A stretch of 64,000 nt of DNA from a virus. The stretch is from positions 20,843-84,842 of the IMG/VR virus record IMGVR_UViG_3300043436_002834; one strand, written 5' to 3'. Below, in pieces: positions 5,772-59,700 of this stretch. How positions within the stretch are numbered: position 1 is the stretch's first letter; every line of letters begins with the position of its first letter. Made by a program: the position numbers and the translations under genes. The notes beneath the pieces were generated by a model. The model made no database searches and was not told the DNA's origin. It saw only the letters and a list, made by a program, of their open reading frames with translations.

Positions 5772-6020
5772 ATGTCAGAACAAACCAACCAAGAAACAGA
5801 CAGAGAATACACTGAAGCTGAGTTAAATGCAATGCGTGAAAAAACCATCAAGTATTATGCTCAGCAAAAAAAAGTATTGACTAGTCAATGTGAAGTAGAA
5901 GAATTAAAAGCAAGAATTAAGAAAGCACAATTTGAAGCATTTGATTATACAGTTCGCATGATGCAGATCAATCAAGCTATAAAAGAAGCAGAAGATGAAG
6001 TAGAACAAAAATCTGAATAA
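5772..6020 (+). CDS. hypothetical coiled-coil protein
   Basis: 82 aa ORF, first gene after the terminator/promoter. Confidence 0.65.
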   Translation: MSEQTNQETDREYTEAELNAMREKTIKYYAQQKKVLTSQCEVEELKARIKKAQFEAFDYTVRMMQINQAIKEAEDEVEQKSE

Positions 6021-7029: not shown

Positions 7030-7303
7030 TATTAATTCAATACCAAGTGTAGATTCAATGATATGGGGCGGAACATCTACTCATAACGGAAATGGTCTTT
7101 TTGCACATAGTGGCGGCAGTACAACTATTCATAGTCTTAATAATCACTTAGAAGAAATTGAAATAATTGCTGATTTATTAGCTGCAGGTATAATTACATC
7201 TGATTCATATTTTAAATTAAAAACTTTACTTCGCTCAACAGATTTGGAAGTAAGACAACTTGGACTAAAATTTATATCAGAAAAATCTAAATTAGAAATA
7301 TGA
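7022..7303 (+). CDS. hypothetical protein
   Basis: 93 aa ORF coupled to both neighbours. Confidence 0.5.
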   Translation: MPDINSIPSVDSMIWGGTSTHNGNGLFAHSGGSTTIHSLNNHLEEIEIIADLLAAGIITSDSYFKLKTLLRSTDLEVRQLGLKFISEKSKLEI

Positions 7304-8139
7304 GTTTAAAGTTTTATTCAGAAGAACACAAGTATGTAAGTGATGATGATTCAGAAAAAATTGACTGGATCAGTGTTACAAGATTGATACATGCTTTTAA
7401 AGAACCTTTCAATACTCAGGTAATGGCTGAGGCTTGTTCTAAAGGAAAGAATCCCAAGTACAATAAAATGACTCCTCAAGAGATTATTGATTTGTGGGAA
7501 AAAGAGAATAAGCGAGCAGTTGCTGTTGGGTCATGGTATCATGATCAAAGAGAAAGAGATTTGCTTTCATGTAATACCATTACCCGCCAAGGAAGAGAAC
7601 TTGAAATTATTAATCCTCTTATGGATGGTAATATTAAGTTGGCCCCATCTCAACAACTTGTAGAGGGTATTTATCCTGAACATCTTGTTTATCTTAAATC
7701 TGCAGGTGTTTGTGGACAATCAGATAGAGTAGAAGTAGTTTTTGATCTTGTTGATGTATTTGATTACAAAACCAACAAAGAAATTAAAATGGAAGGGTTT
7801 AAGGGAAAAGGCGGTAAAACAAAAAAAATGTTGCCTCCTTTGTCTCATTTAGATGATTGCAATTATAATGATTATGCATTGCAGTTAAGTACTTACATGT
7901 ATATTATTTTAAAACATAATCATCATTTAAAACCAGGTAAAATTCAATTAGATCATGTTGAATTTGAAGTTGAAAAATTAGATGAAAATGGATATCCAAT
8001 AGTATCAACTGATGCTATGGGTGATCCACTAGTAAAAAAAGTAACACCTTATGAATTGCCATATTTAAAAAAGGAAGTTATTGCAATGTTTAAGTTTTTA
8101 CAAGAGAATAGAGATAAAGTTTTAAATCATGGCCATTAA
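7300..8139 (+). CDS. PD-(D/E)xK nuclease
   Basis: GQSD...DYKT...YALQLSTY motifs of RecB/Cas4-like nucleases. Confidence 0.8.
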   Translation: MSLKFYSEEHKYVSDDDSEKIDWISVTRLIHAFKEPFNTQVMAEACSKGKNPKYNKMTPQEIIDLWEKENKRAVAVGSWYHDQRERDLLSCNTITRQGRELEIINPLMDGNIKLAPSQQLVEGIYPEHLVYLKSAGVCGQSDRVEVVFDLVDVFDYKTNKEIKMEGFKGKGGKTKKMLPPLSHLDDCNYNDYALQLSTYMYIILKHNHHLKPGKIQLDHVEFEVEKLDENGYPIVSTDAMGDPLVKKVTPYELPYLKKEVIAMFKFLQENRDKVLNHGH

Positions 8140-8641: not shown

Positions 8642-10859
8642 AGATGACTTGGGAGAGGTTTATGAAGATATTCCTCTCTGGCATAATGGTGTATGGACTA
8701 CGCATAATTTTTCTAGCCGTGAAGAAATGGCAGATGAATTAGAAACTAATTATTTCAAAGAACCTGGAGAATACCAATTTGATGAAATAATCAAAGAGTT
8801 TCAAAGAGAAGGTATCAAGTTTAAAAAACATGGTTACTTCTGTGATGCTCCTGATGGCACCAAAGATTTTATTGATTATTGGAATCATGAAAAACTAAAA
8901 TCTAGAAAAGGTGTATTATTTTGGAAAGATGACCGCAAGTTTTATTTACCAAGAGACTACTATTTTTGGATTAACTTTTTACCTATTATTGATAAGATCA
9001 AAAGAAAAACTGATTTACCTGATATTCATGATGCACAGTATCACATGTCATTATATGAATGGATTGGTGAGTTAAAATATAGGCATGGGGTTGTACTCAA
9101 AAAGCGCCAGTTTGGATCTTCTTTTTACCATGCAGCCAAGCTTATAAATATTCTTTGGTTTGAATATTCACCTGTACTTAAAATTGGTTCTTCTCTTAGC
9201 GCTTATGTTACAGGGGTAAATGGTACTTGGAAAATGTTACAAGAATATCGCATTTTTTTAAATACTCATACAGCTTGGTATAGACCAATGAACCCAGGAG
9301 GAGTTGGAGAATGGCAACAGAAAATTGAATATGTAGAAGGTGGGAGAAAGACTGAAAAAGGTAGAAAAGGAGTATTGCAAGCCTTATCTTTTGAACAATC
9401 AGATACTGCCGGTGTAGGGGGTTTATGTACCTTATTCTTTTATGAAGAAGCAGGTATTGCTAAAAGTATGGATAAAACATATGAGTTCATGCTTCCTGCA
9501 TTACAAGCCGGTGAAATTACAACTGGTTATTTTATTGCTTCAGGAACCGTAGGTGATTTGAAACAATGTGAGCCATTGCGTAAATACATGTATAAAGCCC
9601 AAGGTAACGGATTTTATGAAGTACCCAACAAATGGGCTGATGCAAAAGGAACAGTTCTTAATACAGGTTTGTTTATTCCTGAACAGTGGTCAATGCCTCC
9701 ATATATTGATGAGTTTGGTAATTCAAAAGTAGATGAGGCTTTAGAAGCGCTAGTTGAATTAAAGAAACAGTGGAAGAAAGATTTGGATCCGGAAACATAT
9801 CAAATTAGATGTTCTCAGCGACCAACAAATATGGAAGAAGCCTTTGCCTTTAGAGGTGAAAGCATTTTCCCATTAGAACTTGTAAAATCACATAAGCGGG
9901 ATATTGAAGAAGGAGATTATCCATACCGATGCATTAACCTTGCTTATGATAACAAGGGTGACATTATTGCTAGTCCAACAACCAAGAAACCAATTCTAAC
10001 CTTTCCTATAGAAAAGAATGCCGAAGATAAATCAGGTGCTATTCAAGTATGGGAGGAACCAGATGAAGAAAAGGAATTTTGCACAACTTACTATGCTTCT
10101 GTTGACCCCGTGTCTGAAGGTAAAACAGTAACTTCAGACTCATTATGTTCTATCCATGTTTATAAGAATCCAGTTCATATACAAAGAGTAATGACCAATG
10201 GAGAAGTAGAAACATTTATAGAAGGAGATAAAATTGTATGTGCTTGGACAGGGCGATATGATGATATCAATAAAACTCATGAAAGATTAGAACTAATTAT
10301 TGAATGGTATCAGGCTTGGACTGTAGTAGAGAACAACGTGCCTTTATTTATTCAGTACATGCAGTTTAAAAGAAAACAAAAGTATTTGGTACCATCATCT
10401 CAAATTGTATTTTCAAAAGAGATACAAATGTCCAAAACACAATTTCAGCAATATGGTTGGCGAAATGTTTCTACAATATTTAAAACTGTAATGCTCAGTT
10501 ATTTAATTGAGTACCTTAGAGAAGAATTAGATGTAGAAACTGATGACTCTGGAAAGATATATAAAAAGCATTATGGTATATCTAGAATACCGGATTACAT
10601 GTCTATGGTTGAGATGGAACACTATCAGCCTGGAGTCAACGTGGATAGATTAATTTCATTAGCAGCCTTAATTACTTTTGTAAAAATACAGGAAGCAAGT
10701 AGAGGATTAAAGAAAAGAGTTGAGTATGATAATGAAGAACATTTGGAAAAGTCAGAAAATTTGTATAAATTAAATAAGAGTCTCTTTAGGCATATTGGAT
10801 CAAGCAGTGAATCTTTATCAATGAAGAAGCCGCGCAATCCATTTAAAAATATTAGATAA
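8634..10859 (+). CDS. terL: terminase large subunit
   Basis: LKKRQFGSS Walker-A-like, FFYEEAG Walker-B, and RNase H-like VDPV...SDS; crAss-like size and synteny. Confidence 0.9.
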   Translation: MIRDDLGEVYEDIPLWHNGVWTTHNFSSREEMADELETNYFKEPGEYQFDEIIKEFQREGIKFKKHGYFCDAPDGTKDFIDYWNHEKLKSRKGVLFWKDDRKFYLPRDYYFWINFLPIIDKIKRKTDLPDIHDAQYHMSLYEWIGELKYRHGVVLKKRQFGSSFYHAAKLINILWFEYSPVLKIGSSLSAYVTGVNGTWKMLQEYRIFLNTHTAWYRPMNPGGVGEWQQKIEYVEGGRKTEKGRKGVLQALSFEQSDTAGVGGLCTLFFYEEAGIAKSMDKTYEFMLPALQAGEITTGYFIASGTVGDLKQCEPLRKYMYKAQGNGFYEVPNKWADAKGTVLNTGLFIPEQWSMPPYIDEFGNSKVDEALEALVELKKQWKKDLDPETYQIRCSQRPTNMEEAFAFRGESIFPLELVKSHKRDIEEGDYPYRCINLAYDNKGDIIASPTTKKPILTFPIEKNAEDKSGAIQVWEEPDEEKEFCTTYYASVDPVSEGKTVTSDSLCSIHVYKNPVHIQRVMTNGEVETFIEGDKIVCAWTGRYDDINKTHERLELIIEWYQAWTVVENNVPLFIQYMQFKRKQKYLVPSSQIVFSKEIQMSKTQFQQYGWRNVSTIFKTVMLSYLIEYLREELDVETDDSGKIYKKHYGISRIPDYMSMVEMEHYQPGVNVDRLISLAALITFVKIQEASRGLKKRVEYDNEEHLEKSENLYKLNKSLFRHIGSSSESLSMKKPRNPFKNIR

Positions 10860-13594
10860 TGGAAATTTTAAATGCAATAGATTTAAAAAAGGGTAAAAGA
10901 ACCAAAAAAAATAGATTTGGTGTTTTTACTCAACCAATTCAATTTGTTCCTTCTGATGAAAAAGATGATGAGTGGTCAAAGTGGAATATAGATTGGCTAG
11001 AATGGCAAGGGATTAAACAAATTCAAGCTAAGGCAAGACGCATAATGAAGAATTATAAACTTGCTAAAGGAACAATTGATAAGACAGATTACCTGCCAGA
11101 TGTTGAGAATGAAATGACTGAAATGGTTGAGGTTTTAACCGAAGGTCAAAATGAAGCTTTGGAATTAAAGTTCTATCCTATTATTCCAAATGTTATTAAC
11201 ACAATGGTTTCTGAATTTGCTAAAAGAAATACTAAGATTGACTACCGTGCAATTGATGAGTATTCTTACAATGAGATCATGGAAAAAAAGACTGAGGAAA
11301 TAAGCAAAGTGCTTGTTGAATATGCTCAGCAAAAGTTAGTAGCTAAGATGGTAGAAATGGGAATGGATCCTAATTCTGAAGAAGCTCAACAACAACTTGA
11401 TCCAGAAGCATTAAAAAAATTACCAGAGATTGAAGATTTCTATTCTAAGAAATATCAAACTATGGCTGAAAGATGGGCAGTTAAACAACATGCAATTGAT
11501 GTTAACCGCTTTAGAATGGATGAAATGGAAGAACTTGCTTTCAGAGATTCATTAATTACTGATAGTGAGTTTTGGCATTTTAAAATGCTTGAAGATGATT
11601 ATAACATTGAGTTATTAAATCCAGCATTATCATTTTATCATAAATCTCCTAATGTTCATTATATTTCACAAGGTAACTGGGCAGGATGGATAGACATGCT
11701 TACTATTTCAGATGTAGTAGATAAGTATGGCTACTTGATGACTGCAGAACAGTTAGAAACATTAGAATTATTACATCCGGCTAGATCAGCAAGATATATG
11801 ATTGATGGTATTCCTAATGATGGATCACTATACAACTCAGATGATTCTTATGAATCTAATCGTAGATCAGGTGTTGATATGCGCAGGCATCTCTCTTTCC
11901 TAGAGAATGCTCATGACCCCCATGATGTTGTATCTTATATTGTTGGACAGAGTGAACATGCAGGTAACTTACACACTGTGGAATTACTGCGTGTTTCTAC
12001 TGTATATTGGAAGACACAACGCAGAGTTGGCCAATTGACTAAGATTGATGAAGATGGAGCAGTTATTACTGAGATAGTAGATGAAAACTATGTGGTAACT
12101 ACTAAACCTATTTACAACAAAGTATTTCAGAAAAAAGAAGCTGCTGATAATTTAATCTTTGGCGATCACATAGATTGGTTTTGGATTAATCAAGTATGGG
12201 GTGGTGTAAAAATTGGAAATAACAGAACAATCTTTAATACTGAAACTGATACTGACTTTGATCCAATCTATGTTGGTATTGACAGACAGAAACCAGGACC
12301 GCTTAAATTCCAATTCCGTGGTGATAAAACTATGTATGGTGCCAAACTACCAATTGAAGGAAAAGTATTCTCTGATAGAAATACTAAATCAACTTCTTTG
12401 GTGGATTTAATGAAACCTGCACAAATTGGATATAACATCTGTAATAATCAAATTGCAGATATTCTTGTTGATGAATTAGGTTCTGTAATTGTATTAGATC
12501 AAAATGCAATTCCTAAACATTCAATGGGTGAAGATTGGGGTAAAAACAATTTGGCTAAAGCATATGTAGCAATGAAAGACTTTTCAATGTTACCTTTAGA
12601 TCCAAGTATTGCCAATACTGAAAATGCTACTAACTTTCAGCATTATCAAGTATTAAACCTTGAGCAATCAAACCGATTGATGTCTAGAATTCAATTGGCT
12701 AATTACTTTAAACAGCAAGCCATGGAAGTTGTGGGATTAAATCCACAACGAATGGGTCAGCAATTGGGTCAAACAAATACAGCTACTGGTGTAGAACAAG
12801 CAGTATCTGGTTCTTATGCACAAACAGAAACTTATTTTATTCAACACAGTGATCATTTAATGCCTCGTGTGCATCAAATGCGTACTGACTTAGCCCAATA
12901 CTACCATTCTAATAAATCATCTGTTAGATTGCAAGGAATGATCTCTCCAGATGAGAGAACAAACTTTGAAATTAATGGAACAGATTTATTGCTTGTAGAT
13001 TTAAATGTATTTTGCCAAACAAATGCAACTAATAGAAATATGCTTGAACAACTTAAACAAGTGTTCATGAGTAATAATACTACAGGTGCATCAATCTATG
13101 ACTTAGGTAAAGCAATACAAGCTGACTCAATTGGATCACTTAATGGTATTCTTAAAGACATTGAGCAAAAAACTGAAGAGAGACGCAAAGAAGAAATGCA
13201 GCATCAAGAACAAATGCAGCAAGAGGAAATCAAAGCTAAACAAGCAGAAAAACAAATGGTGTTTGACCATGAATCTCGCGAGAAAGAAAAAGACCGCAGA
13301 TCTAGATTGCTTGAAGCTGAGATTAAAGCTGCCGGTTATGGTGCTATGCAGGATGTTAACAAAAATGAGCAATCCGATTTCCAAGATGTTCTCAAAGATG
13401 TTAAGCAGTCTGAGCAATATGCTGAAACCATGAACTTTAACAGAGAAAAAGAGTCTGCAAAAAACAACTTGCATCAACAGAAACTTGACTTAGAGAAACA
13501 AAAATTGATGAATGAGTCTCAAAATAAGCAAATTGAGTTTGCTATTGCTAGAGAAAACAAGAACCGTTTTGATCAGAAAAAACCTAATAAGTAG
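10859..13594 (+). CDS. portal protein
   Basis: 911 aa gene following terL; FYPIIP...SEF, SLVDLMKPAQIGYN and a C-terminal coiled coil as in crAss-like portals. Confidence 0.85.
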   Translation: MEILNAIDLKKGKRTKKNRFGVFTQPIQFVPSDEKDDEWSKWNIDWLEWQGIKQIQAKARRIMKNYKLAKGTIDKTDYLPDVENEMTEMVEVLTEGQNEALELKFYPIIPNVINTMVSEFAKRNTKIDYRAIDEYSYNEIMEKKTEEISKVLVEYAQQKLVAKMVEMGMDPNSEEAQQQLDPEALKKLPEIEDFYSKKYQTMAERWAVKQHAIDVNRFRMDEMEELAFRDSLITDSEFWHFKMLEDDYNIELLNPALSFYHKSPNVHYISQGNWAGWIDMLTISDVVDKYGYLMTAEQLETLELLHPARSARYMIDGIPNDGSLYNSDDSYESNRRSGVDMRRHLSFLENAHDPHDVVSYIVGQSEHAGNLHTVELLRVSTVYWKTQRRVGQLTKIDEDGAVITEIVDENYVVTTKPIYNKVFQKKEAADNLIFGDHIDWFWINQVWGGVKIGNNRTIFNTETDTDFDPIYVGIDRQKPGPLKFQFRGDKTMYGAKLPIEGKVFSDRNTKSTSLVDLMKPAQIGYNICNNQIADILVDELGSVIVLDQNAIPKHSMGEDWGKNNLAKAYVAMKDFSMLPLDPSIANTENATNFQHYQVLNLEQSNRLMSRIQLANYFKQQAMEVVGLNPQRMGQQLGQTNTATGVEQAVSGSYAQTETYFIQHSDHLMPRVHQMRTDLAQYYHSNKSSVRLQGMISPDERTNFEINGTDLLLVDLNVFCQTNATNRNMLEQLKQVFMSNNTTGASIYDLGKAIQADSIGSLNGILKDIEQKTEERRKEEMQHQEQMQQEEIKAKQAEKQMVFDHESREKEKDRRSRLLEAEIKAAGYGAMQDVNKNEQSDFQDVLKDVKQSEQYAETMNFNREKESAKNNLHQQKLDLEKQKLMNESQNKQIEFAIARENKNRFDQKKPNK

Positions 13595-13648: not shown

Positions 13649-13720
13649 TAGTTAAACATATATTATTTACAATTGAATAAATTTGCTTATATTATATCAT
13701 AGTCAGTAATTAAACCAACA
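13649..13720 (+). promoter_or_regulatory. promoter/leader of the capsid operon
   Basis: Contains a TTAAACATATATTA box, TTTGCTTATATTATA, and the GTCAG-N4-TAAACCAAC leader motif. Confidence 0.5.
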
Positions 13721-13723
13721 AAA

Positions 13724-15004
13724 ATGACAGAAGAAGAAAAAGCAGCTCAAGCAGCTGCACAAGTCTCTAGCGCAGCGGTGCAAGAGATTGAGTTTGACAA
13801 CATTGATGATTTGTTAGGAATCCCTTCCGCAAGTTCTGTTATAGCTCCTGCGGATACTAAACCATCAGTATTGAAATCAAACAAAGTTGACATATCGTTC
13901 TTAGATGAGATTAGTGATGATGATACTGAATCTATTCAAGACCCTGATGTAGCAAAAGCTGTAGTATCTTCAATTGTTGATGCGCCACTTTTAAATACAG
14001 ATGAAGAAGAAGATGATGATCAAGCGCAAGTCAACAAAGGAGGAAGACCTAAATTAGTTAAAGATGCAATGGTGGAAGCCGCAACTAGACTAATTGATAA
14101 AGGAATTCTACAACCTTTTGATGATGGAAAAGCATTAGCTGATTATACAGTTGATGATTTTGAAGAACTCATTCAGGCAAACATTGACTCACAAACAAGT
14201 GAAGTTGCACAAAATGCACCAGTTCAGTTGTTTCAACAGTTACCTGAAGAAGTTCAAGCGGTTGTTCATTATGCTTTAAATGGAGGTCAAGATATTAAAT
14301 CGGTATTTAATCAATTGGCTAAAGCACAAGAAACCTTTGACTTAGATGTAAAAAAGGAAGAAGATCAAGAAGTAATTGCTAGACAATACTTAAATCTTAC
14401 CGGATTTGGATCTGTAGAAGAAATTGAGGATGAGATTAATGTTCTTAAAGATAGAGGGGACTTAGCTAAATATGCTGAAAGATACAAACCGAAGTTAGAT
14501 TCACGCCAGGCTGAAGTAATTGAAAAAAGATTACAAGATCAGCAAAGTGCACAGGCGCGCAAGGTTGAGATGGAAAAGAAATACCATGATGTTGTTTATT
14601 CAACATTAAATGCTAAAAACTTAAATGGTATTCCATTAAATAATAAAGTTCAAACAATGCTTTATTATGGCTTAACAGATGCAACTAAGTATCAAGACTC
14701 AAAAGGAAATCCTACAAATGCATTAGGATATCTACTTGAGCAACATCAATTTGGTCCAAAAGCTAATCCATCTTTAGTTGCTGAAGCACTTTGGTTGTTA
14801 GCTGATCCGGTTGAATACCGCAATTCAGTAAAACAATTAGGTGCAAACACAGCTAATGCAAATACTGTTCGCCAATTAAGAACTGAAGAAGCTTCAAGAA
14901 ATGCTTCATCAACTGGAATTGGAGAGCAGGCATCAAATGCTGGAAGAGTTACTGCTAAAAGAGAGCCCGTTAAAAGGCAAGGCAGATCACTTTTTTCCAG
15001 ATAA
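13724..15004 (+). CDS. acidic scaffold-like protein preceding the MCP
   Basis: Acidic disordered N-terminus and helical core; position between portal and MCP. Confidence 0.65.
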   Translation: MTEEEKAAQAAAQVSSAAVQEIEFDNIDDLLGIPSASSVIAPADTKPSVLKSNKVDISFLDEISDDDTESIQDPDVAKAVVSSIVDAPLLNTDEEEDDDQAQVNKGGRPKLVKDAMVEAATRLIDKGILQPFDDGKALADYTVDDFEELIQANIDSQTSEVAQNAPVQLFQQLPEEVQAVVHYALNGGQDIKSVFNQLAKAQETFDLDVKKEEDQEVIARQYLNLTGFGSVEEIEDEINVLKDRGDLAKYAERYKPKLDSRQAEVIEKRLQDQQSAQARKVEMEKKYHDVVYSTLNAKNLNGIPLNNKVQTMLYYGLTDATKYQDSKGNPTNALGYLLEQHQFGPKANPSLVAEALWLLADPVEYRNSVKQLGANTANANTVRQLRTEEASRNASSTGIGEQASNAGRVTAKREPVKRQGRSLFSR

Positions 15005-15036: not shown

Positions 15037-16653
15037 ATGAGTACACCAGTTCTAAATAATGGTATGTTCCTCCGGGACAACTATTACACAGCAAGCTCTC
15101 ATGTGGATTCTTACCACTTGATGAATTTGATGAAGGATGCACAACCAGATGACTTAGGTCCAATTGAACTTTGGGCGCAAGTTAAAAAGTTGGAAATGCC
15201 TTTGTATCAAATGTCATCTTTCAATGGTAAGAATGTTATTGAGGTAAACCACCCTCGTGGTGAATACAAGTGGTCAACACCTGTATCAGAAGAACTTCCT
15301 TTCATCATGGAAGATCTTGATCCATCAAATACAGCAAAAGGTATTGATGGTACACCGTTCAAAATCAAATTGAACAAGCGCGTATTTGGACATGGTGATA
15401 TCATCACTTATGACAAATTCAATGGTAAAGAACTTTACATTACTGACGAGGATATCCTTGACATGGGTGATGGCTTTATCTATACTGTTCAGATGCCAAA
15501 CAATGATTCATCTGCAACATTTGACAACCGTTTCTTGACTAACAACACTTATTTCTTCCGTGTAGGTTCTGCACGCGGTGAATATGGTGAGCGTTACTCT
15601 GATATCTCTATGACTCACACAAGCCGTGAGTTCTACAACTATGTTGGTAATGCTGATGCTCACGTTCACTACACAATCTCTTCTAAAGTTAAATTGATGG
15701 AGAAAGGTGGTATGCAAGCTGATGGTTCTGTACCAGTTGTTGAGATTTGGAAAAACTTTGATACAACCATGGATCCATCTATCAATACTTTAGAAGGTAT
15801 GGTTGCAGCAAAAGGTCAAGGTTATGTGAAAAAAGCAATGGACAATGGTAACCTTGTTCGCTCTTTCATCACTAAACTTGAAGCAGCTCACCTTTCTAAA
15901 ATTGCTTATGACATTGAAACTTACCTTATGTGGGGTAAAGGTGGTCGCATTAAGCAAGATGGTCCAGATGATCTTCGTTTGTCAGTTGGTTTGTGGAAAC
16001 AATTAGACTTGTCTTACAAGCATGTTTACAACAAATCTGACTTCCGTCTTGATATCTTCCGCTCTGAGATTTTCAACTTCTACAATGGTAAAGTTGACTT
16101 CCAAGGTCCAGATCCAAAACGTGAGTTGATTGTTCAAACCGGTATGGGTGGTATGCGCATGATCAATGAGGCAATTAAGCGTGAAGCATTTGCATCAGGT
16201 CTTGTATTGAATGCTAAAGAATTGGATGCTGTTAAAGGTTCAGGAATGGACTTGTCTTATGGCTTCTCTTTCACAAGCTACACTATTCCATTCTTGGCTA
16301 ATGTGAAGTTTGTATTGAACCCAGCATTTGATAACCTTCAAAACAATGAGATTGAAAACCCAATCATTGATGGTTTCCGTTTGTCTTCTTACTCATTTAT
16401 CATCTTTGATATTACTGAGAACGGTCAAGACAATATCAAATTGTTGAAGTGTGCTTGGAACAAAGACCTTGTATGGCGCTATGTAAATGGTACTATGGAC
16501 TATATGGGTCGTACACAAGGTTTTGCATCTTCAGGTAACTTTAATGGATACCAAATCTACATGACTCAGGCAATGCCTGCAATCAAAGTAGAAGATCCAA
16601 CTAAAGTGTTGAAAATTGTGATGCGTAACCCAATCACAGGAGGATCACTATAA
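15037..16653 (+). CDS. major capsid protein
   Basis: Synteny; 538 aa; strong high-expression codon bias (TTC/AAC/CGT); followed by a strong terminator. Confidence 0.85.
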   Translation: MSTPVLNNGMFLRDNYYTASSHVDSYHLMNLMKDAQPDDLGPIELWAQVKKLEMPLYQMSSFNGKNVIEVNHPRGEYKWSTPVSEELPFIMEDLDPSNTAKGIDGTPFKIKLNKRVFGHGDIITYDKFNGKELYITDEDILDMGDGFIYTVQMPNNDSSATFDNRFLTNNTYFFRVGSARGEYGERYSDISMTHTSREFYNYVGNADAHVHYTISSKVKLMEKGGMQADGSVPVVEIWKNFDTTMDPSINTLEGMVAAKGQGYVKKAMDNGNLVRSFITKLEAAHLSKIAYDIETYLMWGKGGRIKQDGPDDLRLSVGLWKQLDLSYKHVYNKSDFRLDIFRSEIFNFYNGKVDFQGPDPKRELIVQTGMGGMRMINEAIKREAFASGLVLNAKELDAVKGSGMDLSYGFSFTSYTIPFLANVKFVLNPAFDNLQNNEIENPIIDGFRLSSYSFIIFDITENGQDNIKLLKCAWNKDLVWRYVNGTMDYMGRTQGFASSGNFNGYQIYMTQAMPAIKVEDPTKVLKIVMRNPITGGSL

Positions 16654-16995: not shown

Positions 16996-17025
16996 AGAGG
17001 CGGATTCAGTGTTCTGCCTCTTTTT
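16996..17025 (+). terminator. intrinsic terminator
   Basis: AGAGGCGGA-loop-TCTGCCTCT followed by a T tract. Confidence 0.75.
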
Positions 17026-17027
17026 AT

Positions 17028-17056
17028 TATATTTGTCAGTCATAAAATAAACCAAC
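17028..17056 (+). promoter_or_regulatory. TATATTTG -7 element plus GTCAG-N8-TAAACCAAC leader
   Basis: Match to the Bacteroidota TAnnTTTG element directly after a terminator. Confidence 0.55.
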
Positions 17057-17061
17057 AAAAA

Positions 17062-18054
17062 ATGAGTACAAAATTTGAAACAATCGGTAAGGTTACAGTC
17101 AAACCTTACACTGATCCTAATCAGGAAAACATGGGACTAGAAAAGTATAATTATGTGGTATTTCCAAATACTTTTCAAGTAGAAAGTTTAGCTGCTGTAG
17201 AACAAAATGGTAAGACCCGCTATTTAACTGGCCTTAATGAGTTTGCTCCAGAAGTTAAACAAATTAAAGACCCAGAAAAAAGAAAAGCGGTTATTAAAGA
17301 TATCCGTGAAACTGTAGCTACTTTAGAAAGAGAAAGAGCATTTAATCATTTAGATCCTGAAGACAAAGAGTTTTGGTCTAAAGTAGAAATGTTTAAGCCA
17401 GACAATTCAGAAATTTGGGGCAAGGTTAGTATTAAGTTAGGCAACGATGATGTTGTCCTTGATCCTAAAGAAAATCTTGATCACCTTATCTTAGTTAAAG
17501 CAATTGAAAACGGAGGATTTTCATTAGTGGCTTCTAACTTTGAAGAGGCAAAAAGAACTAAAGCTAAATGGTACCTAGATAGACAAATTGATTCTGTTGC
17601 TTCTAGTGTTAGCATTACTAAGCTTAAAAATAAAGCAGGAGCTATTTTGGAAGAGTTATCAGAAGAGCAACCAAGAAAACTATTCTACATTGCTAAAAAC
17701 ATTGATGGAAATAGTCCACAATACTCAAACAAAACTATGCCTGGTATTATCTATAGTAATTTAGATAAATACATCAATGGTAAAGCATATGACAATAACT
17801 TAAAGCGTTGTGCTACTACATTTATTGAGCATGCAGAAATGAGTGTTGAGGATCTTAAAATTAAAGCAATTATTAAAGATGCTAGTTTCTATAAGTATAT
17901 CATTGTTAAGTCTGATGGTATGCTTTATGAGCAAACACAAAATGTAATGCTTGGTAGAAATGTTTCTGATGTTTTAGAGTATTTAAAGAATCCAACCAAT
18001 GAAGATATGTTAGATCTTTTAATGGCTAAGGTTGAAGATATTTGGAGTAAATAA
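17062..18054 (+). CDS. conserved crAss-like capsid-module protein of unknown function
   Basis: 330 aa ORF; position downstream of the MCP matches a conserved crAss-like gene. Confidence 0.6.
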   Translation: MSTKFETIGKVTVKPYTDPNQENMGLEKYNYVVFPNTFQVESLAAVEQNGKTRYLTGLNEFAPEVKQIKDPEKRKAVIKDIRETVATLERERAFNHLDPEDKEFWSKVEMFKPDNSEIWGKVSIKLGNDDVVLDPKENLDHLILVKAIENGGFSLVASNFEEAKRTKAKWYLDRQIDSVASSVSITKLKNKAGAILEELSEEQPRKLFYIAKNIDGNSPQYSNKTMPGIIYSNLDKYINGKAYDNNLKRCATTFIEHAEMSVEDLKIKAIIKDASFYKYIIVKSDGMLYEQTQNVMLGRNVSDVLEYLKNPTNEDMLDLLMAKVEDIWSK

Positions 18055-21755: not shown

Positions 21756-21796
21756 AAAATGGAGAATGGAGGCTTTCTCTATTCTCCATTTTTTTT
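21756..21796 (+). terminator. intrinsic terminator
   Basis: AAAATGGAGAATGGAG-gcttt-CTCTATTCTCCATTTT stem with a T tract. Confidence 0.8.
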
Positions 21797-28552: not shown

Positions 28553-29053
28553 ATGAGTTGTAGTTGTAAAGGCGCATGTGAATGCAGTAGTCATGAAGTT
28601 AAACTAAGAGGTCCTCGTGGATTTAAAGGAGACAAAGGGGAACCTGGTGTAGCCGGTCCTCAAGGAATTCAAGGTCTTGTAGGTCCCGTTGGACCCCAAG
28701 GACCTGTTGGTCCTCAAGGGCCTTCAGGAATGACAACTAACCAACTTGCTGTAAAAATTACACATGTTGGCGGACAACTGAAAGCTAATGTATATGGAGG
28801 AATTGGTACCGTTACTTATGCATGGGAAATGGCTGATGTATTGGTAATGAATAATGCATATCATTACTTTCAGTTTAATACTCCAATAAATATACAAACA
28901 GTTGGCGTTTCTTTAACTAACTTTACACCTGCGTTTAATGGTTGTAATGCAACTAACAATGCGCAAATAGGAATGGCCAAGGTAACAGTAACAGATGCAA
29001 CCGGCAGAAAAGCTATTGATACATTCTTACTTTTGAATGTGAATTGTGCTTAA
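28553..29053 (+). CDS. collagen-like fibre protein with an Ig/PKD-like end
   Basis: Cys-rich N-terminal tag, Gly-X-Y repeats, YAW...VTVTDATG. Confidence 0.7.
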
Positions 29054-29065
29054 TGCGAAAAAAAT

Positions 29066-29129
29066 GTCACAGAAGGTTGGTTTATGTGGCTGACTAGGAT
29101 GAACCCCGGATAATACCGGGGTTTGTTTT
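29066..29129 (+). ncRNA. candidate structured small RNA / 3'-UTR element
   Basis: Hairpin GUCACA/UGUGGC with loop GAAGGUUGGUUUA, followed by a terminator; complementary to several leaders (see findings). Confidence 0.35.
29102..29129 (+). terminator. intrinsic terminator
   Basis: AACCCCGG-ataata-CCGGGGTT followed by TGTTTT. Confidence 0.8.
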
Positions 29130-29139
29130 ATCAATTAAT

Positions 29140-29170
29140 TTGTATTTTTGATTTATAATTAGTATATTAT
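29140..29170 (+). promoter_or_regulatory. putative phage promoter TTG-N20-TATATTA abutting the start codon
   Basis: TTG at 29140-29142 and TATATTAT at 29163-29170. Confidence 0.45.
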
Positions 29171-29662
29171 ATGAAGGTTGATTTAAATAAACCAAGGGTT
29201 ACAGAGAAAAAAGGAAAAGTAATTAACTACAAGGAAGTTAGAGATTTTAACAAGCTGTATCCTGAACATAATTTAAAGCAATCAGATATTATTAAAATCA
29301 TGCGTGCATTTAATACTAATCTGGCTGATGAAACAATGAACAATATTTATGGAGTTGTACTTCCAGAAAATATTGGAGCCATATTTATTAATAATGCAGG
29401 CAAAGCAAAAGGTAAATCAATTGACTATGCCAAATCAAAAGCGGCAGAAAAAATTGTTTACCATAAAAATTGGCATACGGATAACAATTTGATGAGGATT
29501 GTTTATATAAATAGAACAAGAAGGACATTAGTAAAAAATGCCAGCTTGTTTACATTTAACCCTCTTCAGCAATTTAAAAGAAGAGCCAGCGCATATTTTA
29601 AAAAACATTGGTCTAGATGTTTAACCACAACATATAAACCAACAGTTGACATAAAACTATAA
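29171..29662 (+). CDS. basic IHF/HU-like crAss-type protein
   Basis: LPENIGAIFI...IDYAKS...YHKNWHTD resembles the divergent IHF-like gene of crAss-like tail modules. Confidence 0.55.
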   Translation: MKVDLNKPRVTEKKGKVINYKEVRDFNKLYPEHNLKQSDIIKIMRAFNTNLADETMNNIYGVVLPENIGAIFINNAGKAKGKSIDYAKSKAAEKIVYHKNWHTDNNLMRIVYINRTRRTLVKNASLFTFNPLQQFKRRASAYFKKHWSRCLTTTYKPTVDIKL

Positions 29663-56700: not shown

Positions 56701-59700
56701 TTGAAAACTTCTTAAAAAATTACAGCGACTTGGTTTTGAAAAAAACTGAGTATGAAGATTTTTATGATGTCAAAGCAACTGAAGAAGAAAACTATGTTCC
56801 TTTGTGGGACCGCTCCGGCAATGAGCAATTATTTGATGAATTAATTGATGGGCAAACATTAAGCATTCTTGGTTCTATTCAGCAATATACTGAACAAGGA
56901 AAAGGTGTGCCACAACTAAATGGATTAGGCTTTAAGAAAATTATGCCTACCAAAAATGCAATTGCTAAAGTAGCAAAACTTTTACGCAATACCCCAGATG
57001 CAATGGACATGAGTGCTAAACTCAAGGATGCTGCAAAAACCGATAAAGAAATTGATCAATTACTAAGAAGATTAGGTGATATTTCACAACTGGATTTTAC
57101 TGATAATATTACTGTTGCTGAACATAGACAATGGACCGGATTCTGGGAATCATTTAATAAAGCAGATGTTTTACTCCGTGAATTTATTTTAGAAAAAGAA
57201 ATAGATGAAACTGATCCGGATAATCCTGTTGTTACTTTAATATCTAAATCAGGTAAGTCTTCTTCTATGAGTTTGCAAGTTACCCGCAAGTGGGCAGCTA
57301 ATTTCAAATTCTTGTTGACGGAAAGCCCTTATGCTGATGAGTTAGGTGGTGTGCCTGTATTTAATTTGGAAAATCTTTATCTTGATTTTAACAGAGCTGA
57401 CTCATTAACTTATGCCAAAATACAAGGACCTGGGCCAAATAATATTACTTCTAAAAATGATCCTAAAAAATCTAAAAATGCGGAGTATACTTTATTTGCT
57501 AAAGTAGAAGCTATTGCTAAACCATTTGAGTTTTTAAAAGCTCTTGGTATAGATATGGTAGAAGATGAGGATGTTAGAAAAATTTTATTTAGAGGTGATT
57601 CTGAATTAGGTATAAGTGCTGCCATTACTGAGTATATTAATAATTCCATCAAAAATAGAATGACCAAAGCTGTTTGGGATTCTGAACTTGAAAGATGGGT
57701 AGTAGATACCAATGGTAAGTTTATTGGCAACTTAGATCAGTTATTTAGAAAATTCAACTACTTTGATGAAAACAATAAAGTTGTAGAACAACAAGATCTT
57801 TCTGGCTTCTTAACTCAATTAAGAGAACTGCAATATATTTATTCTAATGACTATACCAACTTCTCTAGCTTTAATGCTAATGGTGATTTGGTTAGTGAGA
57901 AATCATTAAACTCAAGTCTTTTAGTAACTGTATCAGAAATAAATAAGGCAGCAACACTTGAAGATTTCCTAAAGATTAAAGGTATGGAGCATTTAGATCC
58001 ATATACTAATCCGCAGGCGGCATCATCTAAATGGCTCATTGACATGTTCCAATTAGATCCTTCTGTGCATGCGCCTACTAAAAGAGGTAAGAGAGATTAC
58101 GGTATTAAAATTTCAGTAGAGGCTTTATCGGGATCCAAGCTTATTCAAAAATATAAAGGTATCTCAGAAAAAGAAGATGACACAACTGGTGAAATCTATG
58201 ATGAGCCTATTAGCTGGGAAACTGACCGTGGTATTGAGTCCATGGGTTCAGATATTAAAACTAAATTCATTAGTGATTTCCATTTAACTTTAGAAGGCAA
58301 GCAGGAGATCATGCGATCTGAAGCTAAATCTACTTCATTAACGGTGTTTGCTCCATCAAGAAAAGGATCAGAAACTAGAAAAGGTTCTAACTTACTAGTG
58401 GATAAAGGTGAGGTTCAATCAATTTTTTCTGAAGGATATAAAGGTAAAATTCTTTACAATGAATTTAAAAATCACATAGCTGCAGAAATTATCCGCATTC
58501 AAAAAATCCGTAAGATTAAAGAAATGTTGTTGTCTGGAGAAATCAATCCTTCAGAAATTGCAATTGATGTTAAACAACTTAATCGCGGAGAAGATTGGTT
58601 TGTATTTGATAAAATATTTAATCCTGAGTTAAAAAGTAAACTTGAATCTATTTCATTAGATGGTATTCTAGGAGATAAAGGATTTACTATTGATGCTTTA
58701 TCAACTCCATTAAAAACTGAAATTGAAAATGCTCTTGTAGAGTACTTTAGAAATGAAGCTGCTTTACTGATGAATGAGTTTGCTAATAAGATTGTTATTT
58801 CTGATAACCTTTACAAAGATTACACTAATCAAGATGAATCAATTGAATCAGTAAATGATAAGTTATTTAGAACTTTTGTAATTAATAACTTTATTCAAAA
58901 CCTTAATTACGGTTCATTATTTATTGGTGATTCTTCTGTCTTTAATGTAGAAGGTGAAGATTTTCATAAACGTATTGCTGGATTAATTTCTACTGGTAAA
59001 ATATTTAGACATGATGATGCATGGTTAAAGTTTTTAAACTCTGAAAAATTTAATGCAAAAGGATTTGCTAAAAAGCATAATACAGAAAAGGGAATTACTG
59101 CTGATTACTCATATTCAGGATATTTAAATACAGCTATTATCAAAGAAGCTAAATCTAATTCAGTATATGCGGATCATTATCGCAAAATGCTAGGCTTAGA
59201 TAGCAATAAATATGAAACTGAAGGTGGGGCAATTGAAGAAGCGGATGCTCAAGGTTGGGTTTCATTTGATACTTATCGCTTATTAAATATTTCAATTAAT
59301 GAGTGGTCTGATGCACAAGAAAATTTGTATCAAAAAATGCTATCTGGTGAAAAAATCTTGAAAAAAGATTTAGTTACTACATTCCCTGCTAGAAAGTTTC
59401 AATACTATGGCCAGGTAAATAATCCACAAACACAAGAACTATTGGGTACATTAGGTTTGTCATTAAACAACATGGCATTTCATAAGTACTCTTTAGTACC
59501 ATTAGTTCCTCAATTAATTGAAGGCACTCACTTGCAAACTTTGCATGAAAAAATGATGGAGCAAGGTATTGATTATGTTACAATGCAAACCGGTTCTAAA
59601 CTTTCAACTCTTTCTAAAGTAAAAGTGAACAAAGACACTAAGACTTTTGAAGCTGATGTTGATAATTTCTATGATGCAAAAACTAGAACAGTAACTGAAG

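What the first reader, a model, noticed from the sequence alone, without database searches (positions are those of the whole stretch)
29066..29129. Candidate phage small RNA antisense to the translation-initiation regions of several operon-leading genes
Seen: the 3' UTR of the fibre operon contains GUUGGUUUAUGUGGCUGACUA (29076-29096). Part of it forms the loop of a hairpin (GUCACA/UGUGGC; a G-U pair favours the + strand RNA), just before a GC-rich terminator. Its reverse complement, GTCAG-N-TAAACCAAC, recurs at gene starts. (a) 13700-13719, scaffold/MCP leader: 7+9 bp. (b) 17035-17056, leader of gene 17062: 9 bp including 2 G-U, a 3-nt bulge, then 10 bp. (c) 5774-5790, overlapping the start codon of gene 5772: GTCAG plus AAACCAACC. 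Partial matches ATAAACCAA(C) occur at 29187 and at 29634, ~20 nt before gene 29665. Inference: a 3'-UTR-derived trans-acting RNA that couples capsid-gene translation to fibre-operon transcription. Alternatively, it is an orientation-independent protein-binding box. Caveat: at 17035 the GTCAG half overlaps the predicted promoter and may not be transcribed from it.
Basis: partly seen in the sequence, partly recalled or inferred. Interest (0 to 1): 0.78.

Follow-up and report, generated by a model that had tools for sequence, protein, structure and literature searches.

The report
Anti-leader RNA hairpin after tail-fibre genes
A freshwater crAss-like phage, like hundreds of its relatives, keeps a small RNA hairpin at the end of its tail-fibre genes whose loop mirrors a short A/C-rich signal just before the start codons of the capsid operons, which suggests an untested RNA-on-RNA control of capsid protein synthesis.

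Summary
Positions 29066-29129 hold a 6-bp hairpin with loop GAAGGUUGGUUUA, a CUGACUAG tail and an intrinsic terminator, right after a tail-fibre gene. Loop and tail are the reverse complement of a two-box motif, GUCAG...UAAACCAAC, in the leaders of genes 13724 and 17062.

The element is a conserved plus-strand RNA. A covariance model found it in 76 of 80 and 78 of 80 related phage loci. 98.6% of stem cells pair and 13 of 14 pairs show compensatory changes. It matches no Rfam family.

In its own genome the two capsid leaders are the best and third-best pairing sites. One of 90 shuffled controls did as well.

In a subclade the loop changed G to A and both leaders changed C to U.

Weak points:
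- No RNA data exist.
- A global cognate versus non-cognate energy test gave p=0.089.
- The partial sites at 29187 and 29634 are not conserved.
- The 5772 site is ambiguous.

Best reading (about 0.6): an anti-leader RNA embedded in a 3'UTR. The scan reached the same reading earlier on another genome (e1-5971432).

The parts
28553..29053 (+). Last gene of the tail-fibre operon (166 aa). The element sits in its 3'UTR.
   Evidence: ORF. PHROGs tail fibre families match, best phrog_5073 at E 1.8e-13. The C-terminal coding sequence cannot be aligned between relatives, while the element directly after it is conserved.
29058..29065 (+). A-rich single-stranded stretch between the stop codon and the hairpin. 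It is a possible processing site (inferred).
   Evidence: A-rich in relatives. In 19 of 19 distant loci checked, the hairpin starts 0-20 nt after the upstream stop codon.
29066..29090 (+). Hairpin: stem GUCACA (29066-29071) with UGUGGC (29085-29090), and loop GAAGGUUGGUUUA (29072-29084) that carries the conserved GUUGGUUU seed.
   Evidence: Fold. Covariation on A2: 92.5% of cells paired, 0 of 500 shuffles as high. On A4: 98.6% paired, with 5 of 6 stem pairs changed on both sides. The UUGGUU core is present in 76 of 76 distinct members found by the model.
29090..29097 (+). 3' tail CUGACUAG. It is complementary to the UAGUCAG box at the 5' end of capsid leader 1 and is a subgroup-specific second pairing module.
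   Evidence: The full TGACTAG tail is present in 9 of 76 distinct members (12 begin with TGAC). Two groups of distant relatives (L092-L094 and L132/L152/L200) lack this tail, and their leaders lack GUCAG; in L095 a CUGAC is present but its leader lacks GUCAG.
29102..29129 (+). Intrinsic terminator: AACCCCGG, a 6-nt loop, CCGGGGUU, then a U-tract.
   Evidence: All 8 stem pairs show changes on both sides across relatives, with 99.5% of cells paired.
13700..13723 (+). Leader of the operon that holds the 426-aa protein and the major capsid protein. Box A is UAGUCAG (13700-13706), box B is UAAACCAAC (13711-13719), and the AUG is at 13724.
   Evidence: It is the best pairing site of 71 start regions (-18.6 kcal/mol) and of 2827 genome windows. 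The two-box motif directly precedes the ATG in 33 of 53 related loci. The major head protein is assigned to gene 15037.
17035..17061 (+). Leader of the 330-aa gene after the capsid-operon terminator. GUCAG is at 17035-17039, UAAACCAAC at 17048-17056, and the AUG at 17062.
   Evidence: Second of 71 start regions (-16.1) and third genome-wide. The motif is kept in the 23 related loci where I found it at the second leader. The G of GUCAG overlaps a TAnnTTTG-like box, so the first box may not be transcribed (read from the sequence).
5772..5790 (+). Possible third site inside the first codons of an 82-aa gene: AUG, then GUCAG, then AAACCAACC. Uncertain.
   Evidence: Rank 5 of 71 (-10.0). Kept in 4 of 5 relatives, but as coding sequence MSE.TNQE.

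Best explanation
The element is a conserved structured RNA made from the + strand as the 3' end of the tail-fibre mRNA. It consists of a short hairpin that presents an almost invariant U/G-rich loop ((U/G)GUUGGUUU), a short single-stranded tail and the operon's intrinsic terminator.

The proposed mechanism is as follows. The RNA acts either as part of the mRNA or as a roughly 65-70-nt fragment protected by its terminator. It pairs in trans with the A/C-rich box AAACCAAC, which lies 4-9 nt upstream of the AUG of the two capsid-module operon leaders. In the window's subgroup the tail CUGACUAG also pairs with the UAGUCAG box at the 5' end of leader 1.

These phages lack Shine-Dalgarno sequences, and their presumed Bacteroidota hosts need open start regions. 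A duplex of 9-19 bp over the ribosome loading site would therefore most likely lower translation of the scaffold-like, capsid and 330-aa proteins. This would tie capsid output to accumulation of the fibre-operon transcript.

Shown: the structure, its conservation and strand, the complementarity, its enrichment at start codons, and one compensatory change.
Inferred: action in trans, release of a small RNA, and repression as the direction of the effect.
For: Structure and strand:
- MFE z-score is -4.32.
- On 53 distinct relatives 98.6% of cells pair, 13 of 14 pairs change on both sides, and 0 of 500 shuffles reach the observed values. Slid controls pair in at most 50% of cells.
- G.U pairs are frequent in the hairpin stem, for example UG:17, GU:13 and GU:9 at three pairs. 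On the other strand these would be mismatches.

Distribution:
- The covariance model hits the + strand in 76 of 80 loci and 78 of 80 loci. These are two overlapping samples of more than 300 relatives.
- There is one strong copy in each of 5 of 5 genomes searched (four of them at least 92% complete by CheckV, the fifth a 63% fragment), and one in the window's own genome.
- The element always follows a stop codon (19 of 19 loci).

Target side:
- AACCAA lies within 35 nt of the ATG in 68 of 74 first leaders and 54 of 69 second leaders, and in 0 of 80 internal capsid start regions. The modal distance to the ATG is 7 nt.
- C is otherwise rare at -14 to -5 (1-15%) in this phage's start regions.

Own genome:
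- The cofold energy gain ranks 13724 and 17062 first and second of 71 start regions, and first and third of 2827 windows.
- Shuffles reach these values in 1 of 90, 2 of 90 and 0 of 90 cases.
- The only weak antisense model hits in the genome, apart from the element's own palindrome, are the two leaders (E 0.10 and 0.49).

Co-variation:
- In the nine genomes with loop UUAUUGGUUUU (G to A), none of the nine has CCAAC in a leader. Seven have CCAAU and two have CCAUAU.
- One example is a perfect 13-nt match, AAAACCAAUAUAA, against loop UUAUAUUGGUUUU.
- With loop G, the leader base is C in 21, U in 3 (a wobble pair) and A in 6 of 30 genomes.
- The GUCAG box and the CUGAC tail occur together in the window's subgroup and are both absent in two of the three distant groups examined; the third (L095) keeps a CUGAC without a GUCAG leader.

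Leaders are open: no structure is predicted over the box or the AUG.

No Shine-Dalgarno use: SD-like 4-mers occur in 5 of 71 start regions against 9.2% background, and A at -3 occurs in 65%. Bacteroidetes translation is tuned by mRNA structure near the start codon (PMC6847099, abstract read).
Against: - No RNA evidence of any kind exists.
- The 7-nt cores UUGGUUU and AAACCAA never vary, so most of the proposed duplex cannot be tested by co-variation.
- The one clean compensatory change is probably a single evolutionary event in one clade (capsid proteins at least 85% identical).
- Uncompensated cases exist. Six of 30 G-loop genomes have A opposite the G. L346 has loop C opposite leader A.
- A global test of cognate against non-cognate loop-leader energies over 34 pairs was weak: -11.79 against -11.38 kcal/mol, permutation p=0.089. 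The window-group loops rank only 19th to 23rd of 34 on their own leaders.
- Plain duplex energies of random coding windows come close: -28.9 against -29.7, and -16.8 at 58029.
- Pairing 9 or more bp inside a closed 13-nt loop needs strain or stem opening. The 19-bp duplex with leader 2 requires the stem to open.
- At leader 2 the GUCAG box may lie upstream of the transcription start.
Confidence: 0.6

Rival explanations
1. The hairpin is a protein-recognised RNA element. The protein, from the phage or the host (for example an RRM-type RNA-binding protein of Bacteroidota, a recalled idea), would bind the U/G-rich loop to stabilise the fibre mRNA's 3' end or to tune termination and read-through into the next module. 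On this view the complementarity to the capsid leaders has no function.
For: - An invariant loop on a freely co-varying stem is the classic picture of a protein-binding hairpin.
- The element always sits directly before a terminator and upstream of the conserved promoter-like block and the 163-aa gene.
- The global cognate test is weak.
- Mismatches opposite the loop G are tolerated in 6 of 30 genomes.
Against: - It does not explain why the loop's complement is a conserved C-containing box at the operon-leading start regions of the same genomes (68 of 74 and 54 of 69, against 0 of 80 internal start regions).
- It does not explain why loop G to A coincides with C to U in both leaders.
- It does not explain why the window's subgroup has a second complementary module.
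- A protein would not recognise both a sequence and its complement.
Confidence: 0.2
2. The pairing is real but runs the other way. The very abundant capsid-mRNA leaders would bind the hairpin and tail of the nascent fibre transcript and change termination or stability at 29102-29129. Capsid transcription would then set the read-through into the downstream 163-aa gene and virion-RNA-polymerase module.
For: - The complementarity and co-variation are the same as for the main reading.
- The tail box ends only 4 nt before the terminator stem, and RNAfold can extend the terminator stem into the tail.
- The next module starts 40 nt downstream.
Against: - In most relatives the pairing region is the loop alone, 10-20 nt away from the terminator, and does not overlap its stem.
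- A conserved promoter-like block follows the terminator, so read-through is not needed to express the next gene.
- No anti-terminator alternative fold is conserved. I did not test this systematically.
Confidence: 0.08
3. The two boxes are a DNA site for a phage or host DNA-binding protein that works in either orientation. It would act as an operator at the capsid promoters and again at the fibre-operon end.
For: - There are four copies of the two-box motif, three direct and one inverted.
- In the leaders the motif lies between the promoter-like box and the ATG, which is a typical operator position.
Against: - The spacer between the boxes varies from 3 to 11 nt among relatives and between the two leaders. 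Fixed-geometry DNA binding does not tolerate this.
- At the element the sequence is embedded in a hairpin whose stem co-varies and uses G.U pairs that exist only in + strand RNA.
- Most relatives have only the loop box.
- The path G.C to G.U to A.U seen across clades is an RNA-pairing signature.
Confidence: 0.05
4. The element is a real conserved RNA, but its match to the leaders is chance between two low-complexity conserved motifs.
For: - Random coding windows reach similar raw duplex energies.
- One of 90 shuffled elements does as well on the best site.
- The genome is AT-rich.
Against: - The third-best energy is reached by 0 of 90 shuffles.
- The two modules occur in the same order in two leaders.
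- The box is specific to operon leaders across 59 distinct leader sequences.
- The G to A and C to U changes are correlated.
Confidence: 0.05

Closest known systems
3'UTR-derived base-pairing small RNAs of bacteria (CpxQ, SroC, DapZ type). The names are recalled and come from no call. A 2026 paper on a 3'UTR-derived sRNA acting on a CTX-phi mRNA was seen only as a search listing (PMC13250501).
   Same: - Lies between a stop codon and the mRNA's own intrinsic terminator.
- No conserved promoter of its own.
- A short conserved seed complementary to translation-initiation regions of other operons.
   Different: - Encoded by a lytic-type phage and aimed at the phage's own capsid operons.
- The seed sits in the apical loop of a hairpin.
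- The targets are Shine-Dalgarno-less A/C-rich leaders.
- The presumed hosts lack Hfq (recalled).
- Release of a discrete RNA is not shown.
Phage P1/P7 c4 antisense RNA acting on the ant mRNA (recalled; no call)
   Same: A phage regulatory RNA that pairs through two separate segments with two boxes around the ribosome loading site of a phage mRNA. In the window's subgroup the loop pairs with AAACCAAC and the tail with UAGUCAG.
   Different: - c4 is processed from the same transcript as its target. Here the regulator and its targets are in different operons separated by terminators.
- There is no sequence relation (not tested).
- Most relatives have only one module.
3'UTR-5'UTR pairing within one mRNA (Staphylococcus aureus icaR type; recalled)
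   Same: A 3'UTR motif complementary to the ribosome loading region of a 5' leader.
   Different: The pairing is not within one transcript. Intrinsic terminators at 16996-17021 and 21756-21792 lie between the leaders and the element.
Long non-coding early RNAs of crAss-like phage phi14:2 (bioRxiv 10.1101/2020.03.07.982082; passages read)
   Same: Non-coding RNA in a crAss-like phage of a Bacteroidota host. That paper also reports that middle and late genes are read by the host RNA polymerase.
   Different: Those are long early intergenic transcripts of unknown function at another genome position. Nothing in the passages I read describes a hairpin or a leader match.
Rfam release 15 families
   Same: None.
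   Different: There were 0 matches at gathering score in the window. Over five member loci only 4 sub-threshold hairpin-plus-terminator look-alikes appeared, at 20.6-29.5 bits against cut-offs of 40-55.6.

Membership tests
3'UTR-derived base-pairing sRNA | Located between the stop codon of a gene and that mRNA's intrinsic terminator | tested here: met
   The stop codon is at 29051-29053, the hairpin at 29066-29090 and the terminator at 29102-29129. In 19 of 19 distant loci the hairpin starts 0-20 nt after a stop codon.
3'UTR-derived base-pairing sRNA | Made by processing of the parent mRNA, or from a promoter inside the gene, and present as a discrete stable RNA | not testable with these tools
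   No RNA run holds the phage; the 20 runs that hold the stretch are all recorded as DNA. Upstream sequence is unalignable coding DNA, so no conserved promoter is seen.
3'UTR-derived base-pairing sRNA | Conserved seed complementary to start regions of target mRNAs, beyond chance | tested here: met
   The leaders rank 1 and 2 of 71 start regions and 1 and 3 of 2827 windows. Shuffles reach the real values in 1, 2 and 0 of 90 cases. The box is present in 68 of 74 and 54 of 69 leaders against 0 of 80 internal start regions.
3'UTR-derived base-pairing sRNA | Seed and target co-vary | tested here: inconclusive
   One clade shows loop G to A with leader C to U: 0 of 9 genomes have CCAAC. However, the cores are invariant, 6 of 30 genomes are uncompensated, L346 is uncompensated, and the global test gave p=0.089.
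3'UTR-derived base-pairing sRNA | Dependence on an RNA chaperone (Hfq or ProQ) | not testable with these tools
   The host is unknown. That Bacteroidota lack Hfq is recalled, not tested.
Intramolecular 3'UTR-5'UTR pairing (icaR type) | Both partners lie on the same transcript | tested here: not met
   Terminator-like sites on the + strand at 16996-17021 and 21756-21792 separate the leaders from the element.
Two-site phage antisense RNA (P1 c4 type) | Two RNA segments pair with two boxes at the ribosome loading site | tested here: met
   In the window's subgroup only: 7+9 nt with leader 1 and 9+10 bp with leader 2. The full TGACTAG tail module is present in 9 of 76 distinct members (12 begin with TGAC).
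Two-site phage antisense RNA (P1 c4 type) | Regulator cut from the same transcript as its target | tested here: not met
   They lie in different operons.
Any described RNA family (Rfam 15) | Score at or above the family's gathering threshold | tested here: not met
Orientation-independent DNA operator | Fixed spacing of half-sites, and no strand-specific RNA signal | tested here: not met
   The spacer varies from 3 to 11 nt. G.U pairs are frequent in the stem.

The most novel reading that the evidence does not exclude
The hairpin loop and the AAACCAAC box form a clade-wide, virus-encoded riboregulatory pair in phages of hosts that lack Shine-Dalgarno sequences. The A/C-rich box would be a dedicated translation enhancer of the capsid operons. 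The fibre-operon 3'UTR would be its built-in anti-enhancer. Together they would give these crAss-like phages an RNA timer or dosage balancer between head and tail production that needs no protein regulator. In many distant members a second GUUGG in the tail (26 of 76) may provide a second seed for leaders that carry two boxes.
Probability: 0.35. Interest if true: 0.8.

Novelty: new member of a known kind. Interest (0 to 1): 0.62.

Why it matters
Post-transcriptional control in crAss-like phages, and more broadly in Bacteroidota that lack Shine-Dalgarno sequences, is almost unexplored. My full-text search for 'crAss-like' together with 'sRNA' found 2 papers, and neither is about such an RNA.

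This element is small and sharply defined, and it is present in hundreds of environmental phage genomes. It comes with a natural compensatory mutant pair: loop G to A with leader C to U. That makes the pairing hypothesis directly testable with reporters in a Flavobacterium host.

If confirmed, it would show:
- how a phage couples head and tail gene expression through RNA alone;
- what the conserved A/C-rich leader box does in translation without a Shine-Dalgarno sequence.

It would also add a new RNA family for genome annotation.

Tried and rejected
Expression data: the look-up of sequencing runs listed 22 runs; the 20 that hold the stretch are lake or freshwater metagenomes recorded as DNA. 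No RNA holder was listed.

Cultured relatives:
- blastn of the region against phage records gave one 2% match.
- tblastn with the capsid protein gave at best 26.7% identity, to a Leptolyngbya phage.
- No model phage with RNA-seq data carries the element, as far as I could see.

Plain RNAduplex scan: leader 1 was the best hit, but random coding windows scored nearly as well (-28.9 against -29.7). I replaced this scan with cofold energies that charge for opening the hairpin. One search was the same scan run with T instead of U and gave the same numbers.

Only 3 had the hairpin context.

Global cognate against non-cognate loop-leader energy test: not significant (p=0.089).

Sites rejected as targets:
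- 29187 is the coding sequence for N-K-P-R and is not conserved at the DNA level.
- 29634-29643 is not conserved in 5 of 5 relatives, although it scores third of 71 in the window.

The idea that a leader and the element share one mRNA is rejected because terminators lie between them.

A possible second seed (GUUGG) in the tails of distant members was seen in 26 of 76 distinct members but was not followed up.

Host rRNA complementarity of the leader box was considered but not tested, because the host is unknown.

Literature:
- Searches were badly framed and uninformative.
- Searches gave the phi14:2 transcription paper (passages read).
- Searches gave PMC6847099 (abstract and outline read).
Supplementary file 1 of the phi14:2 paper lists promoter motifs and could bear on where the leaders start.
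Full report
**Context.**
The window is 64 kb of an 84.8-kb viral record. All long ORFs are on the + strand. The genes include:
- a portal protein (10859-13594);
- a 426-aa acidic protein (13724-15004);
- the major head protein (15037-16653);
- tail-fibre proteins ending at 29053;
- very large ORFs typical of crAss-like phages.

No close cultured relative exists. The DNA occurs in lake-water metagenomes.

Start regions do not use Shine-Dalgarno motifs. SD-like 4-mers occur in 5 of 71 start regions against 9.2% background. The regions are A-rich, with A at -3 in 65%. This fits a Bacteroidota host, where initiation depends on open mRNA and on key upstream adenines (PMC6847099, abstract). It also fits the report that middle and late genes of a crAss-like phage are read by the host RNA polymerase (bioRxiv 10.1101/2020.03.07.982082, passages).

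**The observation.**
- A hairpin, GUCACA/UGUGGC, lies 13 nt after the fibre gene's stop codon, with a 13-nt loop GAAGGUUGGUUUA.
- The tail CUGACUAG follows.
- A G+C-rich terminator with a U-tract comes next.

The fold is far more stable than shuffles (z -4.32).

The reverse complement recurs as two boxes:
- TAGTCAG-N4-TAAACCAAC ends 4 nt before ATG 13724.
- GTCAG-N8-TAAACCAAC ends 5 nt before ATG 17062.
- GTCAG-N3-AAACCAACC lies just inside gene 5772.

Genome-wide the two-box pattern occurs only at these three + strand places and once on the - strand, which is the element itself. AAACCAAC has 4 of its 6 + strand copies in start-codon windows, which cover 4.6% of the genome.

**What the element is.**
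In five relatives found through the downstream 163-aa ORF, the block from the hairpin to the terminator is nearly invariant. The coding sequence just upstream cannot be aligned, and the terminator stem co-varies.

Pattern and protein-anchored searches then showed the same architecture in ever more distant phages, with different stem sequences such as GUCAUG/CAUGAC, GUCAG/CUGAC and GUGGUGG/CUACUAC.

A covariance model built from 20 sequences gave these results:
- One strong copy in the window's genome and one in each of five further genomes (four at least 92% complete, one a 63% fragment).
- Hits on the gene strand in 76 of 80 and 78 of 80 loci. These are two overlapping samples of 319 and 337 relatives of the 163-aa ORF.

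On 53 distinct sequences:
- 98.6% of cells form pairs.
- 13 of 14 pairs show changes on both sides.
- No shuffle out of 500 reaches the observed values.
- Sliding the partners drops pairing to 33-50%. That alignment was fitted to the model, which favours the structure. The unfitted MAFFT alignment already gave 92.5% paired and 0 of 500 shuffles.

G.U pairs are common in the stem, so the folded molecule is the + strand RNA.

The hairpin always begins 0-20 nt after a stop codon (19 of 19 loci). It is therefore a 3'UTR element with no conserved promoter of its own.

The loop is almost invariant. All 76 distinct members hold UUGGUU, 69 hold GUUGGUUU and 6 hold AUUGGUUU. Members were found with a model that includes the loop, which biases this count.

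No Rfam family matches.

**The partner.**
Across 80 loci anchored on the capsid gene:
- The first gene of the capsid operon is preceded by AACCAA within 35 nt in 68 of 74 cases, and by AACCAAC in 54 of 74. There are 59 distinct leader sequences, and the modal distance to the ATG is 7 nt.
- The gene after the capsid terminator is preceded by AACCAA in 54 of 69 cases.
- The internal start region of the capsid gene has it in 0 of 80 cases.

C is otherwise rare in this phage's start regions. The box is therefore a specific signal of operon-leading start regions, not general A-richness.

In the window's subgroup the leaders also keep GUCAG(U), separated from the box by 3-11 variable nucleotides. 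The motif is present in 33 of 53 first-leader loci and in the 23 loci where I found it at the second leader.

**Is the pairing more than chance?**
RNAcofold charges for opening the hairpin. With it, the energy gain on 71 start regions (-40 to +20) is as follows:
- -18.6 for 13724
- -16.1 for 17062
- -15.6 for 29665
- then a gap to -10.3
- 5772 ranks fifth at -10.0
- the median is -3.4

Among 2827 windows tiling the + strand of the genome, the two leaders rank first and third.

Ninety dinucleotide shuffles of the non-terminator part gave these results:
- One reached the real best energy.
- Two gave three start regions at -15 or below.
- None reached the real third-best.

The covariance model gave an independent pointer. 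Scanned over both strands of the genome, its only weak antisense hits besides the element's own palindrome are the two leaders (E 0.10 and 0.49).

**Co-variation.**
The 7-nt cores never vary, so only the flanks inform.

The clearest case is a clade in which the loop base 5' of UUGGUU is A instead of G (12 of 78 loci). In nine such genomes with leaders in hand:
- None has CCAAC.
- Seven have CCAAU in leader 1 and/or leader 2.
- Two have CCAUAU.
- The matches are long: 13 of 13 nt in L321/L322, and 10-11 nt in several second leaders.

With loop G, the opposite leader base is C in 21, U in 3 (a wobble pair) and A in 6 of 30 genomes.

The likely path is G.C to G.U to A.U, which is an RNA-pairing signature.

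Further, weaker cases:
- L088/L024: loop UUUC with leader GAAA.
- L091/L035: loop GGUUGGUUG with leaders CAACCAAC.
- The CUGAC tail and the GUCAG box occur together in the window's subgroup, and both are absent from two distant groups (L092-L094 and L132/L152/L200); L095 has a CUGAC but its leader lacks GUCAG.

Evidence against:
- The A-loop clade is probably one evolutionary event.
- L346 has loop C opposite leader A.
- Six G-loop genomes are uncompensated.
- A global cognate against non-cognate energy test over 34 pairs gave only -11.79 against -11.38 kcal/mol (p=0.089).
- The clade-by-clade interaction does go the expected way: variant loops on variant leaders -10.78 against -9.65 on canonical leaders, and canonical loops on canonical leaders -11.79 against -10.19 on variant leaders.

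**Mechanism.**
The leaders are predicted to be open over the box and the AUG. The box sits where the 30S subunit loads. In this host type structure near the start codon lowers initiation. The most likely effect of pairing is therefore repression of the first cistron of each capsid-module operon. This step is inferred.

Terminators at 16996-17021 and 21756-21792 lie between the leaders and the element. The interaction would therefore be in trans, from the fibre-operon transcript or from a fragment of it protected by its terminator.

I put about 0.6 on this reading. The rivals are:
- a protein-bound 3'-end hairpin whose match to the leaders has no function (0.2);
- the reverse direction, in which the leader acts on termination (0.08);
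- a DNA operator (0.05), which is disfavoured by the variable spacing and the G.U pairs;
- chance (0.05).

- The partial matches at 29187 and 29634 are not conserved.
- The 5772 site is kept in 4 of 5 relatives, but inside conserved codons.
- At leader 2 the G of GUCAG is the last base of a TAnnTTTG-like box, so this box may be at or before the transcription start. I could not settle this.

**Comparison and novelty.**
Functionally this resembles 3'UTR-derived base-pairing small RNAs. In the window's subgroup it also resembles two-site phage antisense RNAs such as P1 c4. Both comparisons are recalled, not tested.

It is not an intramolecular 3'UTR-5'UTR pair, and it is not an Rfam family.

I found no description in print. 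A search for 'crAss-like' plus 'sRNA' returned 2 papers, neither on this. The passages I read of the phi14:2 paper mention only long early non-coding RNAs.

An earlier follow-up in this scan reached the same reading for the same RNA family on another genome (e1-5971432). That note is not independent evidence. I re-derived everything here.

I class the element as a new member of a known kind, with moderate to high interest. It is widespread and sharply defined, and nature has already supplied the compensatory mutant needed to test it.

Noticed in passing
window 29130-29173: The block AATTTGTATTTTTG...TAGTATATTATATG between the terminator and the 163-aa ORF is invariant in five relatives. It holds TATTTTTG (TAnnTTTG-like, 29143-29150). 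It also holds TATATTAT (29163-29170), which abuts the ATG at 29171. If TATATTAT were the -7 box, the annotated start codon would lie upstream of the transcript start. Which box is the promoter remains open.
   Followed up: partly
window 29171-29662 and loci L237-L401: The 163-aa ORF (phrog_12177, unknown function) has more than 300 relatives. It always lies downstream of the hairpin, either directly or, in distant clades, after one extra gene of about 400 aa. Invariant residues include N, W, T and D in a K-N-W-x-T-D block.
   Followed up: no
window 2565, 13682, 23316, 36267 and genome positions 13242, 14367, 18656: A repeated promoter-like word, TTTTTTGTATATTATA(G), stands before several operons.
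   Followed up: partly
window 28553-29053 versus L001-L005: The C-terminal part of the last fibre gene cannot be aligned between phages whose flanking genes are 72-79% identical. This looks like cassette-style exchange of receptor-binding ends, with the RNA element as the conserved right-hand border.
   Followed up: no
loci L237-L401, tails between hairpin and terminator: 26 of 76 distinct members carry a second GUUGG in the single-stranded tail, and 36 carry GUUG. Many distant leaders carry two ACCAA boxes. This may be a two-seed, two-box arrangement.
   Followed up: partly
window 13702-13728: In leader 1, GUCA (13702-13705) can pair with UGAC of AUGACA at the start codon. This is a 4-bp closing stem in the MFE fold. 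ATGACAGAAGAA is kept in nearly all close relatives.
   Followed up: no
G001:C1:68038-68092, G012:C1:95248-95316, G010:C1:27321-27397: The covariance model gave weak second hits (E 0.002-0.008) elsewhere in three complete relatives. They may be ordinary hairpin-plus-terminator sites.
   Followed up: no
window 7769-7795: AAAACCAACAAAGAAATTAAAATGG lies inside gene 7300-8139, with an out-of-frame ATG 16 nt downstream. It is probably chance.
   Followed up: no
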